Positions 7,476 to 61,000 of a DNA stretch of 64,000 nt are shown here, one piece after another (positions within the stretch are counted from its first letter, which is position 1; every line of letters begins with the position of its first letter). This DNA is from the human T2T-CHM13v2.0 reference genome, Homo sapiens. The position numbers and the translations under genes are program-made. The DNA lies in NCBI RefSeq assembly GCF_009914755.1, contig NC_060947.1; one strand, written 5' to 3'. Below the pieces are notes generated by a model, which did not search any database, had not been told where the DNA came from, and saw only the letters and a list, made by a program, of their open reading frames with translations.

Positions 7476-8149
<674 letters not shown>

Positions 8150-8718
8150 GTACCTGGTATCATGCAAATGCTGAATAAGTGTTAGTTTCTGGCTATAAAA
8201 TTGAGATAATACCAGTACCTACCTCAGAGGGTTTATAGGGATTAATTGGGAGAATAAATGTCACACCCCTGGCCAAATAGGTGTTAAATGTATGGTAAGT
8301 ATCATCATCAAAATTGTTGCACTGGGCAGTCTCTTCCGGTAACAAATTATCAGATAATGGAGGGAGCATTTAATGATCATGCTGATACTGATCAGATTGG
8401 TGCCTGGAGAGAAGTACCTGCTAAAAATTTGTCTAAGCAAGCAGTACAAAGCACAGTAATCTGAAGGTCAAGGGGAGCATGAGGTGGTGATTCAGCAGGG
8501 AAAACATTTGCAGAATAGAGACAAAGCTCTTTTCAAAACCACGAAGAAACTGGAAAGTAAGCAGGATGGTTAATGCAGATTATAGAAATCTATGGGGCAG
8601 CTCCCAAAGAAGTATACTAAGAGGTCAGAGGCAAGTCAGCTAGAAAACCTTAAAAGAAATTTTAGGAGAGTTGAGCAAAAGTGGGAGGTGTGATTTGAGG
8701 CTAGAAAAGAACAGGGCT

Positions 8719-9030
<312 letters not shown>

Positions 9031-9289
9031 GGGCCTAATGATAATAGCTAATACAAAATCTGTATTTATTTAGCACTTACTATTTTTCAAGCATTGTGCT
9101 AAGCAATTCATGTGCATTATAAAACTTTGTCTTCCTTATCCTATGAGGTAAATTTTTATTATTACCTCTGTAGTATAGTCTAGGCCCACATAAAACCTTA
9201 TATTATACCAAGCCCCAAAAGAGTGGTTTCTGGAAATAAGTCATTGAATGTGGTTTAGAGGGTCCAAGATTAAATTCATCATCTTTCAT

Positions 9290-12354: not shown

Positions 12355-12590
12355 ACTGAGCTAATATTTATTGGACACCTATTATGTGCCAGGTAGTGGC
12401 CTAAATGTATCATATCTTGTAATTTAATCATCAGCAACTATCCTACGTGGTAGGTGCTGTCATCATCCCCATGTGGCAGATGAGAAAACTGAGACAGAGA
12501 GAGACAAACTAACTTACCTAAGGTCATGCAGTAAAATAAGTGGTAGATTTGGGATTTGAGCCCAGACAGTCTGTGTTCTTAACTACTACC
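12355..12590 (-). mobile_element. MIR SINE
   Basis: cagatgagaaaactgagacagagag...cttacctaaggtcatgcag...gggatttgagcccagacagtctg. Confidence 0.8.
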
Positions 12591-13689
12591 CTGCCTCTTT
12601 CATTTCTTACAATCTGCCAAGAATGTCCTTTTTCCCATCCTACTGTTCACCAAGCAAAACCCTTCAAGGCTTAATTTGAGTCTTCTTTGGGAAATGTTAC
12701 CTGACTTCTCCACATTCCTTACTACCTCTGATCCTCACCCATGGCTGAATAAGGTATCTCTCTTCTGGCTTCTCCTAGAACCTGTGCATACCTCTAATTA
12801 TAGCACTTGACACACAGCTTACATGTCTGTTCACGAATTTCTTGAGAGCATGAAGTTTGCCTTAGTTGCCTTTTATCCCAACATGTATGCAGCACAGTGC
12901 CTGGAACACAATAAATCCTTCTTGAGTAACTATTCTTCTCCTGGAAGATCTCCCGCAAATGATTGTGGTGAGTTTCTATTGTCAAAACTTATAAATCCAC
13001 AGGTGACATCTTTCGCTATTCTGGAGCCATGAGAGCCTCTGCAAAACTAAGCAGAGAGGGCTTCTAAATAGGATGGTACGGATTGTGACCTGTATTTGTT
13101 CATACTTTATTTGAATATACTTGCACATTTACAGAAAAATTATGAGAATAAGAATAAAAAGAGTACTCATACGTTTTTTACACAGACTCACCTATTGCTA
13201 ACATTTTCCCCATTTCCTTTATGATTTGCCACTCACTCTATCATCTGTCTATCTATCTGTCTATCTATCTATCTATACACACATATAGTTGATTTTTCCT
13301 GAACCAACCATTTAGAGTACATTGTATATATCATAGCCCTTTTAATCATAAACACTTCACTATTCTCTTACATATCCTCATACCATTATCACCAGCATTA
13401 AATTTAACATTTACATGCTACTTTAATATAACCTACACTCTACATTTCATTTATGGAATATTCCATATTCCAATTGTGGCAATAAACTGTCCTTTATAGC
13501 ATTTTTGTTCTGATGATTATCGACTGGGTAACCTTAGGGGCAGTGGCTTCATCTCTGAGCTTCAGTTTTTTATTTGAAACATGAAGGTGATAATGAATGC
13601 CTTAATAAGCTAGATGTTGGAAGAGTAAATGGTGGTAATTTATGTGAAAGCACCCTGGCATATTGTAGTAAGGCCTGTTCGACCATATA

Positions 13690-54671: not shown

Positions 54672-55606
54672 GAGGTTAATGGTCTCTATCTCACAGATTT
54701 GTCGTAAGGATCAATGGAATAATGGAAGTAGAGGTGCTTTATAGATTCTGAGGCTGTGTGCACTTGCCAAGTGGTATGTCTGAGTTCAGGTCCTATTGAA
54801 CTGTGCTCTAATGGAATATCACTGTACAAATAAGATATTTTTAGACACTTGTATCTTTTTATATTATGGGCAGATATTTACTTGTCTGCATAGCATTCTT
54901 GTGTAGGAGGCTTCCCTTTTATAGATAGGAGGGAACCAATTCTGAAAACTGAAATTCATTTCCCAGAGACTATGGGTAGCTGATACAACCAGCCATCCTG
55001 ATCAAAATGGTTACTACTGGTTCCAATTTTTTTCCATCTAGGCTCAAAGAAGCAATTTAGGGAGACCCTGCCCTGATCCTCTCAAGTAGCAACTCTGGAT
55101 TCTACTCCTAGAACAGAGGAAAAGCTGCTGATCCTAGGCCTGATAGTTCCAAGCTAATAACCCTGACAGAAACTGACTTGCAAAAAAAAAAAAAACATTG
55201 GCCTGAAAGGGCTAGTAATGACATTTGTCATGTGGGGTGGTTTAGATGGTCTATGACCATGGGAAAAAGCCAATTCCCCCCCAGGCCTAATAATCTCACT
55301 CCTTAATCTAGCAAACTCACTCCTGAAATTCAATTCTAAAGTAAAAATTTAATAGAAAAAAGGCTATATCTATGGATATTTTTATGATAGTAAAAATACA
55401 GAAAAACACTTAAAACTAAACAACAGGGTAAAGGCTATACAAAATTAAAAGGATACTTACAAAAACGGTGCAGAAACATGGAAATATATGTCAGAGGTGA
55501 GAAAACTGATGCAGAGGAAAGCCAAATCAATAATGTGAGTTCACCTGCTCAACAAATGGTAAAGCTGGGACTTGAACCGAAGCAATGCAGCATCAGGGTT
55601 TGTGGG

Positions 55607-55786
55607 TGCCTTATTCTGCTCGGGCTGTCACAATAATATACCATAGACTGGGTGGCTTAAACAACAGAAATTAATTTTCTCACAGTTCTGGAAGCTGCAA
55701 AGTCCAAGACTGAAATTCTTCCTGGCTTACAGATGGCTGCCTACTTGCTATGTCCTCACATAGTGGGAGGTGAGGGTGTGTGTGTG

Positions 55787-55826
<40 letters not shown>

Positions 55827-55996
55827 AGAAATAGAGATCTTTAGTGTCTCTTCCTCTTTTATAGTAATGCAAGTTCTTACATCAGTGTTCCACCCTGATG
55901 ACCTCATTTAACCTTAATCACCTCCTTAAAGGCAATATGTGGGGTGTTAGGGCTTCAACATATAAATTTTGGGGAGACACAATTCAGTTCATAGCA
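55607..55996 (-). mobile_element. MaLR LTR (MLT1A-type), 3' LTR of the composite element
   Basis: ataccatagactgggtggcttaaacaacagaaattaattttctcacagttctggaagctg...gggcttcaacatataaattttgggg...ttcagttcatagca. Confidence 0.85.
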
Positions 55997-57288
55997 TTCT
56001 ATCTCTGGGCCTCTGAAATTCATGTCCTTATAGCAGGCAAAATACCTTCATATCATCCCAACAGCCCTAAAACTCTTAATTAATTTTAGTATCAACTCTA
56101 AATTCTGAAGACCCAAGTTTCATCTAAATATCACCTAAATCAGAGATGGGTGAGAAATGAGGTATGATTGATCCTGAGGCAAAATTCCTCTCCAGCTGTG
56201 AACCTGTGAAACCAGACAAGTCATGTGCTTCCAAAATACAATGATGAGACAGGCATAAGATAAAAATAAGTAGGAAAGAAGGAAGGGGTGCAGGGTCCCA
56301 ATCAAATCCAAAGCCTAGCAGGACAAGTTTTATTAGATCTTAAGGTTCAAAAATAATCCTCTTTGGCTTGATATCCACCTTTCAGACCCAATGAGGCAGT
56401 GGCTTCACCCCCATGTCCCTGTTTAGAAGCTGTTTAGTTTCAGTTGAAACTGAGGCAATGGCACCACCCTTTGAAACCAAGGAGGCAGACATGATGATCT
56501 CTGAATCACCTTTGGGGTGAGTCATTCTTCCCTTTTCTTGAAGAATAGTGCATGTTCGCAGGTGAATGACTCTATGGTCTGGTCTTGTAGGACCTAAGAA
56601 ATCCAACAGCCTTCCTCATTTAGTCTCATTTTTTTTCTGTCTTCTTTAGTTCCTGTTGGTATGTTTCTCCCAGTATAATCCCATCTCTATTCCTGGCTTC
56701 TGCTGAGATAGTTGGTTAAATCCATGTGTTGCACCCATAATCTCTTCATCAAATGATTATTCAGCCACACCCTTAGTGTTCTCTTCAGAAACAGCTTTCT
56801 CATTTTTTATAATATGGAAAAATTGAAAATTTTCCAATTCTCCAAGTTATTTAGAATTGGATAATGGGTAGAGTGTTAGGCAAAAGGTGACTTTTTGCCT
56901 AACAATTCCTTCTTCAATTCATCTCTCTCCTCTCACATTTTGCTATAAGCAGTAAGGAGGATCCAGGCTTCACCTTCAACACTTTGCTTAGAAATCTTCT
57001 CTGCTAAATATCCATTTTCATCATTCACAAGTTCTACTTTACACAAAACACTAGAACACAATGAAGCCACATTCCTTGCCATTTTATAACAAAGATTGCT
57101 TTTCTTCCAGCCTCCAATAACCTATTCCTAATTTCCACCCAGGACCTCACCAGAATTGCCTTTAACATCCATTTTTCTAGCATGCACCTCAAAACTCTTC
57201 CAGCCGCTACCCATTATCCAGTTCCAAAGCTACTTCCACATTTTTAGATATTTGTTACAGCAGCACCCTACTTCTTGGTACCAAAATT
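55997..57288 (-). mobile_element. MaLR internal region (MLT-int)
   Basis: aaattcatgtcctt...tcctgaggcaaaattcctctccagctgtgaacctgtgaaacc...cccattatccagttccaaagctacttccacatttttag...cttcttggtaccaaaatt, typical of MLT/MST-int. Confidence 0.8.
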
Positions 57289-57329
57289 TGTATTAGAGTT
57301 CTCTAGAGAAACAGAACCAACAGGAATGC

Positions 57330-57365
<36 letters not shown>

Positions 57366-58017
57366 GTATATATATATGTATATATATACGTATATATATA
57401 TGTATATATATGTATATATATATGTGTATATATGTATATATATGTATATATATATGTATATATATGTGTATATATATATATACACGTATATATATGTGTA
57501 TATATACACGCATATATATATATGCATATATATATATGCATATATACATTTGGCTCCTGTGATTATGGAGGCTGAGACATCCCAAGCTCTGCAGTTGGCA
57601 AGCTACAGACCCAGGAGAGCCAATGGTATAGTTCTAGTCCAAGTCCAAAGACCTAAGAACCAGGAGAGCCAATGGTGTAAGTTCCAATCTGAGAATTGGC
57701 AGGTTCAAGATCCAGGAAGTGCAGATGTTTCAGTGTTTGGGTCATAAGGCAGAATGAGGAGATGTCCCTGTTCAAGAAGGAAGGCAGGAGGAGTTCCGTC
57801 TTACTTGTAGGAAGGTCAGCTTTTCTGTTCTATTCAGTCCTTTAATTTATGGGATGAAGTCCACCAACATTAGGGAGAGCAATCTGCTCTACTCAGTCTA
57901 TTAACTTAAATGTTGATCTAACCAAGAAACATCCTCATAGACACAATCAGAATGTTTGACCAAATGTATGGGCACTGTGTGGCCCATTCAAGTTGACACA
58001 TAAAAGTAACCATCATA
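57289..58017 (-). mobile_element. ERVL LTR (MLT2B-type), in the 5' LTR position of the composite element
   Basis: tgtattagagttctctagagaaacagaaccaacagga...(TA)n...gattatggaggctgag...caagttgacacataaaagtaaccatcata. Confidence 0.85.
57329..57548. repeat. Compound (TA)n/(TATG)n microsatellite
   Basis: About 220 bp of alternating purine-pyrimidine sequence. Confidence 0.95.
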
Positions 58018-61000
58018 GTGGGTTTAACCACAGGGTTATTTTCCTAGTGTCTGCATTTCTTGGCCCTTATTAATTGGCCTTTTGTACAATTTTCTTAATT
58101 ATTTTGCCTGTTTACTTTCCTAGTATATGTTATTTTTTCAGGCTTCAAGAAATTATTATTAGATTTTCATTGAAATTGCCTTTCTCCAATTCAACCTCCT
58201 CACCACTGCCAGGGAAAACTTCTTCGAGTACAAATCACATCTGTTGCTCTCTTGATTAAAATATTTTAATGGTTTCCTAGGCTCCTAAACTCCTCAGTAA
58301 AGATACTAGGCCTTTCATGATCTTACCTCTACCAACCTCTCTGGCTTCCTGCCACACTTCTCCTGCTACACTCTAGTTATCTCTCATAATTTGCATTTCC
58401 CTAAGTGGAGTGTGTGCTCTCTTTTTCTCCCATGCTCTTGCTCATGCTTAGAATACCTTCTTGACCCACCCATGCCAAGTGAACATCTACACTTATTGGG
58501 CCCCCCTGGGCCCAGCACGAAAAGAAGTTTCAAAGAAGAAGAAATCAGCAAAGTTAGGAGATCAAGAAGGAGGCAGACAGAGATTTAGATCATGTGGAGG
58601 TCACTGGAACCTCTGAGATAAAGTATAGGTTGAATGGCAGGAGCCAAAGTCACTGAACAAGTAATTATGAAGCCAGATGTTTGATGGTGAAACGAAAGAA
58701 AGAGACAAAAATAGATCTCCAGAGAGTAGAAACATTGAGAGGAAAGCATGTTTAAGATGGTTACTTGTAGAGTTTCTTACATAAGCCATTGAGCAATTTA
58801 AATATCACTCAATTGATGGCAGGGCAAAAATCATTTTCGAATGCTCCTAGCTGTACTCATAGCTACAAAACCATTAATAATCCTGTAAACATGTCCATGT
58901 CATGCAATAGAAACTCATATTTTCAATCTCTATGTTAGGTGGCTCAAAGCAAGGCCCTCCAATTGGACCACTCAAACAAATTCCACTCTTGGCAAATAGA
59001 TAGTTATGATTTCTGGTCTCAAATTCTGCAAGTTAAATGCCAAACCATACCCCTTCTTATGCAAAGCATCTTTTTAGAGCACCTCTCCAGTGCTGTTTTC
59101 TAAATCTCATTCTCCTGCTAATGACACCCTGTCTTTCTTTCTATCTCTCTCCCAATTTTCACCCTCCTCTTCCTTTCCCCATGGAGTATCCAGAGATTCA
59201 TAGTTTGTGAATAATTATTAGTCTGTATAAAAGCTTGGTTTGATGGTGGGAGTTGGGGCAGGAGGGTTCTGGGTCTGTTTAGAAAGCTACTAGAGTTGAG
59301 AAAACAGAGTGGTATATACAAGACAACATACGTGCAAATTTGAGCCAGGCAGGGTAAAAAATCCAGACTTTTTGCTGTCACAGACCCTGTTACATCACTC
59401 ACTTATGTATTACCCTCCAAACTCAGCTTATTTATATAGAAGGTACCCAGACAATAATTCCCAACTAGAGTTGTACTTTATCAATTCAAAGACCCTCCCC
59501 TCTACAAATCCCATCTAAGTACTTACCCAAGCCCTTTCTGCTCAACTTAGACCTCAGGACTTCAAAATACTTGTCCCTCAGAACAGGATTTACCTACCAC
59601 CCCATCATTTTCCATAAATAGGGGAAAAATTAACTAGCATTGATTGACTACCTCCTGGGTAGCAAGAATTTAACCCTCATATGGGTGAACTTGGCACTAT
59701 AACTTCATCTTACAGGTGGGGAAACTAAGACCCAGTGAGGGACATTTTCAAAGTCATATAGGTAATAAGTTGGCATAAGTGGAATGGGAATAAAGCAAGT
59801 TCAAGGTCCATACTTTTTCCACCACCCTTCAACAACATCTGTGGGAACAGATTTTTTAAAACAGGACCGTAAAGCTTATTTGTATCGTATGCCTTCTCAA
59901 GTTCTGTTTCCTATCCAATCCTCAAATTTCCTTTTCCTCAAATAACTAATAAAATTGGCCAGTGCAAGGAAGGTATGTTTAGTAGTTTACAAGGAGTAGA
60001 GTTTCAGAGAGAAAGTATAATGGAGTTTTATTTTCTTACTTCCTGTCTCCTGTTACAGTTCTTGCAGAAGAGTGGGAATCTTTTGATCTGGGGTACTGAA
60101 ATCCCAGAAATATCAACCCTAGTCAGCTCCAAAAAGCCCATAGGACTGGGTGGGTTTAATCTCCTTCTCGGTAGGCCTGAAAGTGACCAGAGGAGGAAGC
60201 CTCTTGGCTTGTTCACCAGGTTTGTGATACTTATGAGCCAGGTGTCCTTTTGGCCCTCCACAAGGACTATGAAAAGCTTGTGACTTTCTGGATCTGTTTA
60301 TCTCATGGACTTGGCTCTGCTGGGGGATCCTAATATACCCACGCCACTGTGTCTCAAACCCAGAGGGATCTGCTGGAAGGGATCTATCTTTGGAAATGGC
60401 CTGAACCCTCCTGCTGCATTCTACTTAGTTCTCTATCTTGGGCATCTGGGATGGAGAGTAAAGGTGATTTTAATTGCTTTTTAGCTCAACAACAGGATGA
60501 TTAAAATTGCTTAAAGTATGTTTTAAGCTGCAAATCAACCTTTACCCTGTAGTTACTTATATTTTAAATTGGCTTGTTTCTGTTCCCGTGCCATCACAAC
60601 AACATCAGTTCTGAGCAAAATGGTACTGTTAACTGTTTCCTATCACCTACCTCTCACTTCCAGTTTCTCCATCTGGGCCCCTCTTCCTTTTTTAGCACTT
60701 CTGCCTCCCTCAGGGACTTCCAGTAATACCAATCCCTTGCTCAGGAAAATGAAACTCTCATGGGATATGATCCAGAGACAGTCTAATAGGAGTGATGGTT
60801 TAATGCAGTGAGGACCTCAATGATTTCCAGAAGTCCCACCACTTAAGTATCCTTCAGCTTCCCCAAATAAACACCCCACTCATTACTATGTACAGCTTCT
60901 CTCAAAAAGTGCCAAGGAAACTGAGGTAAAGTCATTCATTCCTTCATTTGCTTATTCATTTATTTACCAATTTTTGTTGACCACCTCAGCTGAAGGCGTT

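What the first reader, a model, noticed from the sequence alone, without database searches (positions are those of the whole stretch)
55607..58017. One integrated LTR element with two unrelated LTRs (ERVL 5' LTR + MaLR body and 3' LTR)
Seen: read on the minus strand, the order is MLT2B-type LTR (58017-57289), a PBS-position junction (aattttggtaccaagaag), MaLR internal sequence, a purine-rich tract, then an MLT1A-type LTR (55996-55607). The same 5-mer GTGGG sits immediately outside both ends (55602-55606, 58018-58022). The flanks rejoin into a plausible MIR end (cttgaaccgaagc...tgtggg|tttaaccac). Established: reverse transcription normally yields identical LTRs, class III elements make 5-bp TSDs, and MaLRs are non-autonomous and thought to use ERVL machinery. 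Inference: this may be a fossil of co-packaging, in which plus-strand strong-stop DNA from an ERVL genome jumped onto a MaLR minus strand through their similar PBS-region sequence and the hybrid integrated. That would be direct evidence of MaLR parasitism on ERVL.
Basis: partly seen in the sequence, partly recalled or inferred. Interest (0 to 1): 0.8.

Follow-up and report, generated by a model that had tools for sequence, protein, structure and literature searches.

The report
Recurrent two-family LTR hybrid element
The element with two unrelated end repeats is real, but it is one of many built the same way in the human genome, which points to a repeated copying accident between a parasitic retroelement and its helper virus.

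Summary
On the minus strand, 58017-55607 reads: an MLT2-like LTR ("M2"), a 5-nt spacer, an 18-nt primer-binding site, a 1.29-kb internal part without pol ("INT"), a purine tract, then an MLT1-like LTR ("M1"). CCCAC abuts both ends. The flanks rejoin into one MIR.

It is not a one-off. Of 29 other INT copies, the 5' LTR is M1-type in 15, M2-type in 11 and chimeric in 1. The 3' LTR is M1-type wherever seen and never M2.

Thirteen hybrids were tested for 5-bp duplications. Four match 5/5 and two match 4/5; none of 156 mismatched control pairings reached 4/5. So each hybrid integrated as one unit.

The family switch lies within the last bases of U5, the spacer and the primer-binding site. Right after that site, M2 LTRs elsewhere continue into a different leader, presumably ERVL.

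Best explanation (about 0.55): plus-strand strong-stop DNA of an M2-LTR element repeatedly landed on a MaLR minus strand. Hybrids then resisted collapse to solo LTRs, so they are over-represented among survivors. Reciprocal products are rare at most (7 or fewer of 36).

Four literature searches found no report. The family names are recalled, because no Dfam library was available.

The parts
58018..58022 (-). Upstream copy of the 5-bp target-site duplication (CCCAC on the minus strand, GTGGG on the plus strand)
   Evidence: Read directly. Scored 5/5 against the downstream copy.
57289..58017 (-). 5' LTR of M2 type (MLT2-like by recall). It is about 512 nt plus an internal TA microsatellite at 57330-57546.
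   Evidence: Homologous LTRs sit at the same place in front of INT in 11 of 29 other copies. The U5 end aligns with M2-type ends.
57284..57288 (-). 5-nt spacer between the LTR end and the PBS
   Evidence: The same spacer position is shared by M1-INT copies, M2-INT copies and the other-leader loci L064 and L065.
57266..57283 (-). Primer-binding-site position, an 18-mer starting TGGTACC
   Evidence: the only PBS-like match in the window. The tRNA identity (Leu) is recalled, not tested.
55997..57288 (-). Internal sequence INT (MaLR-type, no pol), 1292 nt including the spacer and PBS
   Evidence: 40 scored genomic matches out of 3380 first-look candidates. M1-type LTRs lie on both sides in other copies. 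No ORF is longer than 77 aa on the element strand. 5 ORFs gave 0 Pfam families.
55997..56013 (-). Purine-rich tract at the PPT position, directly before the 3' LTR
   Evidence: It aligns with the same tract in 9 M1-type, 1 chimeric-LTR and 14 M2-type copies.
55607..55996 (-). 3' LTR of M1 type (MLT1-like by recall), 390 nt, with a GA repeat at 55789-55837
   Evidence: An M1-type LTR follows INT in every copy where a 3' LTR is visible.
55602..55606 (-). Downstream copy of the 5-bp target-site duplication
55460..55601 (-). Downstream part of the interrupted MIR-like SINE (host target)
   Evidence: Matches another MIR-like copy at window 12471-12562. The joined flanks align across the insertion site. 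The MIR name is recalled.
58023..58045 (-). Upstream part of the interrupted MIR-like SINE
   Evidence: the alignment spans the join.

Best explanation
The window element is one of many hybrid LTR elements that were made before integration.

Proposed route:
1. A non-autonomous MaLR RNA (M1 LTRs plus INT) and an element with M2 LTRs (most likely an ERVL helper) were reverse-transcribed in the same particle.
2. The M2 element's plus-strand strong-stop DNA (a whole M2 LTR plus the copied PBS) annealed to the PBS end of the finished MaLR minus strand, instead of to its own minus strand.
3. Completing both strands gave M2 LTR - PBS - INT - PPT - M1 LTR.
4. The integrase inserted this product with one 5-bp duplication.

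The short MaLR minus strand reaches its PBS long before a full-length ERVL minus strand does, which would favour this capture.

The two LTRs of a hybrid are not homologous, so a hybrid cannot collapse to a solo LTR by LTR-LTR recombination. Hybrids are therefore over-represented among the internal-bearing copies that survive, and the rate of formation may have been only a few percent.

Shown here: the anatomy, the recurrence, the separate duplications, the position of the switch, and the 5'-only asymmetry.
Inferred: co-packaging, the strand-transfer step, the kinetic argument, the survivorship bias, and that M2 elements are ERVL.
For: 1. Integration as one unit. CCCAC abuts both ends. The flanks rejoin into one MIR-like copy.

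2. Recurrence. Of 29 other INT copies taken by INT similarity alone, 11 have an M2-type 5' LTR, 15 M1-type, 1 chimeric and 2 none. With an M1-type copy as query, 19 of 39 places could be classified, and 8 of those are M2-type.

3. Separate integrations. 13 hybrids were scored at their projected ends: 5/5 in 4, 4/5 in 2, 3/5 in 5, 2/5 in 1 and 1/5 in 1. None of 156 mismatched pairings reached 4/5.

4. Asymmetry. The 3' LTR is M1-type in 19 of 29 copies, plus 2 more in wider loci. It is M2-type in 0.

5. Switch zone. In M1-INT and M2-INT copies the sequence is the same from the spacer and PBS rightwards, and differs by LTR type leftwards except for about the last 9 nt. In L064 and L065 an M2-type U5, the same spacer and a PBS starting TGGTACC are followed at once by a different leader.

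6. That other leader is a real family of matching age. 40 matches lie at 73-80% identity, and 29 of its 39 copies extend into M2-type U5.

7. INT copies of hybrids are not a separate lineage. The tree of 31 rows is a star with 0 starred branches, and the M2 label needs 8 changes against a shuffled mean of 10.3.

8. The PPT/3' LTR junction is the same in both classes.

9. Established knowledge: plus-strand transfer uses PBS complementarity, and plus-strand pieces can anneal to the minus strand made from the co-packaged RNA (review PMC3187697, passages read).
Against: Reciprocal products (M1 LTR in front of the other leader) were not found. Of 39 old-leader copies, 29 carry M2-type U5, 3 are 5'-truncated and 7 could not be classified. 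Reciprocals are therefore at most 7 of 36, far below the roughly 40% of hybrids among INT copies. A symmetric model fails and needs an extra assumption, for example that only the short cDNA is finished or integrated, or that most ERVL RNA is packaged as homodimers.

In studied retroviruses plus-strand transfer is held to be essentially intramolecular (recalled: Panganiban & Fiore 1988; Yu et al. 1998; not read here).

The PBS of INT copies differs from that of L064/L065 by an indel and one or two substitutions. The same tRNA is therefore not shown.

I did not show that the other leader belongs to a pol-bearing ERVL.

Seven of the 13 hybrids match at only 1-3 of 5 duplication positions. That is expected for copies of this age, but it means single-unit integration is not shown for those seven.

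The samples are the best-scoring 40 of thousands of candidates and may not represent the family.
Confidence: 0.55

Rival explanations
1. Same parents, but joined as DNA. Two finished or nearly finished unintegrated cDNAs (one M2-LTR element, one MaLR) recombined in the particle or nucleus across the roughly 30-nt shared tract (end of U5, spacer, PBS). The recombinant was then integrated.
For: This fits the same facts: a single duplication, the switch confined to the shared tract, and recurrence.
Against: It does not by itself explain why only the 5' LTR is replaced (0 M2-type 3' LTRs). A 30-nt tract is short for homologous recombination. No sequence test here separates this from strand transfer.
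Confidence: 0.15
2. The hybrids are a lineage that copies itself as M2-INT-M1 by some unusual replication scheme, or the layout is a composite family already known to repeat curators. In that case no repeated accident is needed.
For: The fraction is high: 11 of 29 and 8 of 19. The library name 'MLT-int', without a number (Kojima 2018 table, PMC5753468), could hint that curators saw both LTR types; that is speculation. Smit 1993 could not be read.
Against: An RNA running from R of M2 to R of M1 would give progeny with two identical U3(M1)-R-U5(M2) LTRs, not the hybrid layout (established reverse-transcription scheme). Only 1 of 29 copies has such a chimeric 5' LTR, and its 3' LTR is plain M1 (L028). 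Hybrid INT copies do not cluster in the tree.
Confidence: 0.12
3. Events after integration: a normal M1-INT-M1 element lost its 5' LTR to a nearby or nested M2 LTR by deletion, gene conversion or ectopic recombination.
For: Old elements often carry nested insertions and deletions. Two copies show odd layouts (L043/L019 and L044/L030).
Against: This needs exact replacement from the first base of the LTR to the PBS, leaving matching 5-bp duplications. That pattern is seen 5/5 in 4 and 4/5 in 2 of 13 hybrids, against 0 of 156 controls. No M1 remnant lies outside the M2 LTR in the window. The window's flanks rejoin into one MIR. Ectopic recombination between two proviruses would give unmatched duplications.
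Confidence: 0.03
4. Chance: two unrelated neighbouring insertions that happen to share a flanking 5-mer.
For: A single 5-mer match at loosely chosen ends is not rare.
Against: Recurrence at many loci with exact junctions and the duplication control.
Confidence: 0.01

Closest known systems
Retroviral recombination through the obligatory strand transfers, including the strand displacement-assimilation model (review PMC3187697, passages read)
   Same: It uses PBS complementarity for plus-strand transfer. It lets plus-strand DNA anneal to the minus strand made from the co-packaged RNA. It requires two genomes in one particle.
   Different: That model concerns near-identical genomes and yields proviruses with two like LTRs. 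Here the partners belong to different families and the product keeps two unrelated LTRs. No experiment is available for these extinct elements.
LTR swapping between autonomous and non-autonomous retrotransposons in soybean (Du et al. 2010, Plant Cell; only the title was seen in reference lists; paper not held)
   Same: A helper and its non-autonomous dependant exchange LTR sequence.
   Different: I could not read the paper. As I recall it, the swapped LTRs became the LTRs of new lineages (both ends alike), rather than dead-end units with two different LTRs.
Hybrid LTRs in new ONSEN insertions (Sanchez et al. 2017, PMC5668417, passages read)
   Same: Recombinants between co-expressed elements arise at high frequency during reverse transcription.
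   Different: Those arise within one family, and the mosaics lie inside the LTRs. Here whole LTRs of two families sit at the two ends.
Complex LTR-internal-LTR-internal-LTR elements made by abnormal template switching in Triticeae (Sabot & Schulman 2007, PMC1950507, abstract read)
   Same: An aberrant reverse-transcription product is integrated as one unit.
   Different: That is a fusion of two whole elements sharing an LTR, not a swap of one LTR.
The 'aba' hybrid LTR, MLT2A2/MLT2B3 (Zhang & Frith 2024, PMC11319637, first part and passages read)
   Same: A recurrent hybrid with fixed breakpoints among class III LTRs in the human genome.
   Different: That hybrid lies inside a single LTR and is interpreted as a new MLT2 subfamily. 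MaLR internal sequence and MLT1 are not mentioned in the text read.
Ordinary MaLR (M1-INT-M1) and ordinary ERVL (M2-leader...M2) elements
   Same: Each half of the window element matches one of them: the PBS, INT, PPT and 3' LTR match the MaLR type, and the 5' LTR matches the M2 type.
   Different: At integration an ordinary element has two identical LTRs. This one did not.

Membership tests
LTR retroelement integrated as one unit | Terminal TG...CA, with a short direct duplication of the target directly outside both ends | tested here: met
   The window element ends in CA and starts TA where other copies have TG. CCCAC lies on both sides. Of 13 hybrids, 6 match at 4/5 or better, against 0 of 156 controls.
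LTR retroelement integrated as one unit | PBS next to the 5' LTR and a purine tract next to the 3' LTR | tested here: met
LTR retroelement integrated as one unit | Two LTRs identical at integration | tested here: not met
   The two LTRs share no BLAST hit. Single-copy local alignments score at shuffle level.
MaLR (MLT1A-type LTR with MLT-int) | Short internal part without pol, flanked by this LTR type in other copies | tested here: met
   INT is 1.29 kb. 5 ORFs gave 0 Pfam families. M1-type 5' LTR in 15 of 29 copies, and M1-type 3' LTR in all 21 visible.
MaLR (MLT1A-type LTR with MLT-int) | Match to the curated MLT1A0/A1 and MLT-int models | not testable with these tools
   No Dfam or Repbase library is available. 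The pairing of MLT-int with MLT1A0/A1 is taken from the Kojima 2018 table. The assignment of this sequence to those names is recalled.
ERVL (MLT2-type LTR) | The same LTR type joined through a PBS to a different, ERVL-type internal sequence elsewhere | tested here: met
   L064 and L065 show M2-type U5, spacer and PBS followed by a non-INT leader. 29 of 39 old-leader copies extend into M2-type U5.
ERVL (MLT2-type LTR) | Internal part encodes gag-pol of ERV-L type | not tested
ERVL (MLT2-type LTR) | Match to the curated MLT2B models | not testable with these tools
No Dfam library is available.
Product of intermolecular plus-strand strong-stop transfer | The family switch is confined to the PBS tract | tested here: met
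   the switch lies within about the last 9 nt of U5, the 5-nt spacer and the 18-nt PBS.
Product of intermolecular plus-strand strong-stop transfer | Only the 5' LTR is foreign | tested here: met
   11 M2-type 5' LTRs against 0 M2-type 3' LTRs.
Product of intermolecular plus-strand strong-stop transfer | Reciprocal product exists (M1 LTR in front of the other leader) | tested here: inconclusive
   0 shown. 7 of 36 non-truncated old-leader copies could not be classified.
Product of intermolecular plus-strand strong-stop transfer | Both partners primed by the same tRNA | tested here: inconclusive
   Both PBS start TGGTACC but differ by an indel and one or two bases further on. The tRNA was not identified.

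The most novel reading that the evidence does not exclude
Hybrid M2-INT-M1 units may be a large class of fossils, plausibly hundreds of copies, that record MaLR RNA being reverse-transcribed in the same particle as ERVL RNA. Each hybrid would pair a MaLR subfamily with the ERVL lineage that mobilised it. The class would show that heterologous plus-strand transfer was a regular by-product of MaLR replication. Because hybrids cannot collapse to solo LTRs, they would now make up about 40% of the surviving internal-bearing copies of this MaLR family.
Probability: 0.4. Interest if true: 0.75.

Novelty: new variant of a known kind. Interest (0 to 1): 0.6.

Why it matters
MaLRs are the most numerous LTR elements in mammals. 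They are assumed, without direct evidence, to have been moved by ERVL proteins (stated as background in PMC11319637 and PMC5538554, passages read).

A recurrent class of integrated units with an ERVL-type 5' LTR, a MaLR body and a MaLR 3' LTR, switching exactly at the PBS, would be physical evidence that the two RNAs met inside one particle. It would also allow three things:
- pairing each MaLR subfamily with its helper lineage;
- estimating how often plus-strand transfer went astray;
- correcting copy-number and age estimates that assume paired LTRs.

Practical consequences follow. Dating by LTR divergence and 'full-length element' callers will misread these units. The survivorship effect (no solo-LTR formation) is a general bias worth knowing about.

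If curators already know the pattern, the value is smaller. Even then it seems not to be in the searchable literature.

Tried and rejected

- Three M2 LTR hits that reached the LTR end were fetched in the hope of finding ERVL internal sequence. All three are solo LTRs.

- A BLAST test of MIR continuity with strict scoring gave 0 hits. With lenient scoring it gave 2 hits, neither spanning the join. A direct alignment to the one good MIR copy in the window did span it.

- I looked for homology between M1 and M2 that could mark a shared R region. Four single-copy alignments scored at shuffle level, so I make no such claim, although L028 switches type near a short shared motif.

- I tried to fetch 37 further M2-PBS junctions to count hybrids against ERVL-type junctions. 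I classified a few by cross-reading places instead: at least 4 hybrids and at least 6 with the other leader, out of 40.

- A reciprocal-product test by query coverage is only indirect, and 7 copies stay unclassified.

- Papers not held: Smit 1993, Du et al. 2010, Lauermann & Boeke 1997.

- Rejected explanations: chance, nested insertion plus deletion, ectopic recombination between proviruses, and L1-mediated copying. L1 copying is rejected because the ends are TG...CA with 5-bp duplications and no poly-A.
Full report
**What is in the window**

Read on the minus strand, the region 58017-55607 has the full anatomy of one LTR element.
- A first LTR-like block runs 58017-57289. It holds a TA microsatellite at 57330-57546.
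- A 5-nt spacer and an 18-nt primer-binding-site (PBS) position follow at 57288-57266.
- A 1.29-kb internal part ends in a purine-rich tract at 56013-55997.
- A second LTR-like block runs 55996-55607.
- CCCAC (GTGGG on the plus strand) lies directly outside both ends, at 58022-58018 and 55606-55602.

I call the blocks M2 (5' LTR), INT (internal part) and M1 (3' LTR).

Further checks on the window element:
- M1 and M2 do not hit each other in BLAST. Four single-copy local alignments score no better than shuffles.
- No M1-like sequence lies beyond 58022.
- Neither LTR has a duplication of its own.
- INT has no long open frame. Five of its frames gave no Pfam family.
- The two host flanks, joined in a script with one copy of the 5-mer, align across the join with another MIR-like copy at window 12400-12680. 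BLAST versions of that test had no power.

**It is not a one-off**

The window's own genome could be searched. A search with INT alone (40 scored of 3380 first-look candidates) gave 29 other loci, L012-L040. I mapped them with real M1, M2 and INT copies as references.

| Neighbour of INT | M1-type | M2-type | Other |
|---|---|---|---|
| 5' LTR (29 loci) | 15 (one, L012, lies 820 nt away and is uncertain) | 11 (L013, L018, L019, L030-L032, L035-L039; in L019 only a 63-nt piece) | 1 chimeric (L028); 2 with none (L024, L029) |
| 3' LTR | 19, plus 2 more in wider loci (L045, L046) | 0 adjacent | not visible in the rest |

One 52-nt M2-like piece lies 500 nt beyond the 3' LTR in L020.

A second search used the INT of an M1-type copy as query and gave 39 other places. 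Of these, 19 could be classified from loci in hand or from the query coverage: 11 are M1-type and 8 are M2-type. The fraction, roughly 40%, therefore does not depend on which class supplies the query.

Both samples are the best-scoring copies only, so the figure is rough.

**Each hybrid was integrated as a unit**

I fetched 20 wider loci. Thirteen of them show M2 - INT - M1.

For 12 of these plus the window I projected the first base of M2 and the last base of M1 from alignments to real copies, then compared the 5-mers outside.
- Left out: L049, because its M1 end could not be placed.
- Also left out: L043, L045, L047, L048, L054, L059 and L060, because one end was missing or unclear.

Matches at the exact projected positions:

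| Matching positions | Hybrids |
|---|---|
| 5/5 | 4 (window, L055, L056, L058) |
| 4/5 | 2 (L046, L050) |
| 3/5 | 5 |
| 2/5 | 1 |
| 1/5 | 1 |

Of 156 mismatched pairings used as a control, none reached 4/5 and 21 reached 3/5. A few M1-INT-M1 copies with both ends in hand give similar 4/5 matches by eye (L016, L020, L034).

End branches of about 0.14 changes per site fit duplications that are only partly preserved.

**Where the families switch**

An alignment of 29 junctions shows that M1-INT and M2-INT copies are the same from the spacer and PBS rightwards. Leftwards they differ by LTR type, except for roughly the last 9 nt of U5.

Both have the same spacer position and a PBS starting TGGTACC. 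Immediately after the PBS they continue into a different leader.
- The two leaders are homologous to each other.
- L064's leader family is young: 40 matches at 89-92% identity.
- L065's leader family is as old as the INT copies: 73-80% identity.

The switch in the hybrids is thus confined to a tract of about 30 nt: the end of U5, the spacer and the PBS. This tract is shared between the two kinds of element.

At the other end, the purine tract and the start of M1 are the same in hybrids and in M1-type copies.

The PBS of INT copies differs from that of L064/L065 by an indel and one or two bases. The INT copies also vary between CA and TG at one dinucleotide, the pattern of CpG decay. Use of the same tRNA is therefore likely but not shown.

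**How it most likely arose**

Standard reverse transcription makes both LTRs from one U3-R-U5 and cannot give two different LTRs (scheme in PMC3187697, passages read). A whole foreign 5' LTR joined at the PBS, with the element's own 3' LTR intact, is what results from this sequence of events:
1. The plus-strand strong-stop DNA of another element (its whole LTR plus the PBS copied from the tRNA) anneals to the PBS end of this element's minus strand.
2. Both strands are then completed.
3. The product is integrated.

That requires two minus strands in one particle, hence co-packaging of a MaLR RNA with an M2-LTR element's RNA.

Two inferences make the high fraction less surprising.
- The short MaLR minus strand reaches its PBS long before a full-length helper's does. 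A waiting helper strong-stop DNA can therefore be captured.
[quoted passage not shown] If 95% of ordinary copies collapsed and no hybrids did, a 40% share today would correspond to about 3% at integration.

The INT tree is a star with no supported branch, and hybrids are scattered through it. That fits many independent events from one pool of RNAs, though a star tree has little power.

**What speaks against it**

- The reciprocal product was not found. Of 39 copies of the old leader, 29 extend into M2-type U5 when U5 is added to the query. Three are 5'-truncated. Seven were not re-listed and remain unknown. Reciprocals are at most 7 of 36, so the process was asymmetric and needs an added assumption.
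- Plus-strand transfer is regarded as essentially intramolecular in studied retroviruses (recalled, not read here).
- I did not show that the other leader leads into pol, so 'M2 = ERVL LTR' rests on recall and on the literature's general statement that MLT2 LTRs belong to HERVL (PMC11319637; Kojima 2018 table).

**Rivals**

- Recombination between two unintegrated cDNAs across the same tract fits the same facts, apart from the strict 5' asymmetry. It cannot be told apart by sequence.
- A self-copying hybrid lineage is unlikely. Its RNA would yield progeny with two identical chimeric LTRs. Only L028 has a chimeric 5' LTR, and its 3' LTR is plain M1.
- Replacement after integration, and chance, are excluded by the duplications and by the recurrence.

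**Comparison with what is known**

The mechanism is a variant of known retroviral strand-transfer recombination. Analogues in print:
- hybrid LTRs within the ONSEN family (PMC5668417);
- fused complex elements in Triticeae (PMC1950507);
- the MLT2A2/MLT2B3 'aba' LTR (PMC11319637);
- by title only, LTR swapping between an autonomous element and its non-autonomous partner in soybean (Du et al. 2010, not held).

Four full-text searches found no mention of units with an MLT2 5' LTR, a MaLR body and an MLT1 3' LTR. Nor did reading passages of the MaLR and HERVL papers found. Smit's 1993 MaLR paper could not be read. Supplements were not consulted. Repeat curators may well know the pattern.

**Verdict**

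- The element is one member of a recurrent class, not a unique fossil. That makes the evidence for MaLR-helper co-packaging stronger and countable.
- Novelty: a new variant of a known kind. Interest: 0.6.

Noticed in passing
L028:1031-1495 and L028:2691-3370 (G000:C6:159728458-159731827): One INT copy has a chimeric 5' LTR. It starts as M1-type and ends as M2-type, switching near a short motif that both LTR types share. Its 3' LTR is plain M1 and is interrupted by an Alu. It may be a product of a hybrid RNA used as template, or of a minus-strand transfer between families.
   Followed up: partly
L043:3101-4439 (same locus as L019; G000:C7:41135500-41143500): Odd layout: an M1-type LTR end, a gap of about 430 nt, then only the first ~65 nt of M2 abutting INT at its position 16 (inside the PBS). 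L044/L030 similarly joins M2 position ~165 to INT position ~908. These look like deletion derivatives of hybrids.
   Followed up: no
window 57330-57546, and the same LTR position in L041-L060: The stretch just upstream of the M2 U5 end carries a different simple repeat in almost every copy (TA, CT, TG, TATC and others). This position in the M2 LTR appears prone to forming microsatellites. In the window it has grown to 217 nt of TA, the only part of the element masked in NCBI's file.
   Followed up: no
window 7732-7775 and 8085-8143: Two short M1-like LTR end pieces on the plus strand, probably one further old MaLR LTR split by an insertion (masked stretch 8713-9083 nearby).
   Followed up: no
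window 12471-12562: Another MIR-like SINE copy, used here as the comparison for the interrupted MIR at the insertion site.
   Followed up: partly
junction alignment (PBS column block): INT copies split between CA and TG at one dinucleotide of the PBS, in both LTR classes. This is the signature of a decayed CpG. The INT PBS is one base longer than the PBS in L064/L065.
   Followed up: partly
G000:C16:20383670-20384011 (+) and G000:C16:20506186-20506238 (-): Two M2-PBS junctions 122 kb apart on opposite strands have the same span and identity to the query. One is followed by the young leader. This is probably an inverted segmental duplication holding a young provirus.
   Followed up: no
L012 (G000:C2:130317369-130321616): This is the best-scoring other INT copy, near full length at 70% identity. 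It has no M1 LTR within 1.5 kb downstream, and its upstream M1 pieces lie about 820 nt from INT. Later insertions or a rearrangement are likely.
   Followed up: no
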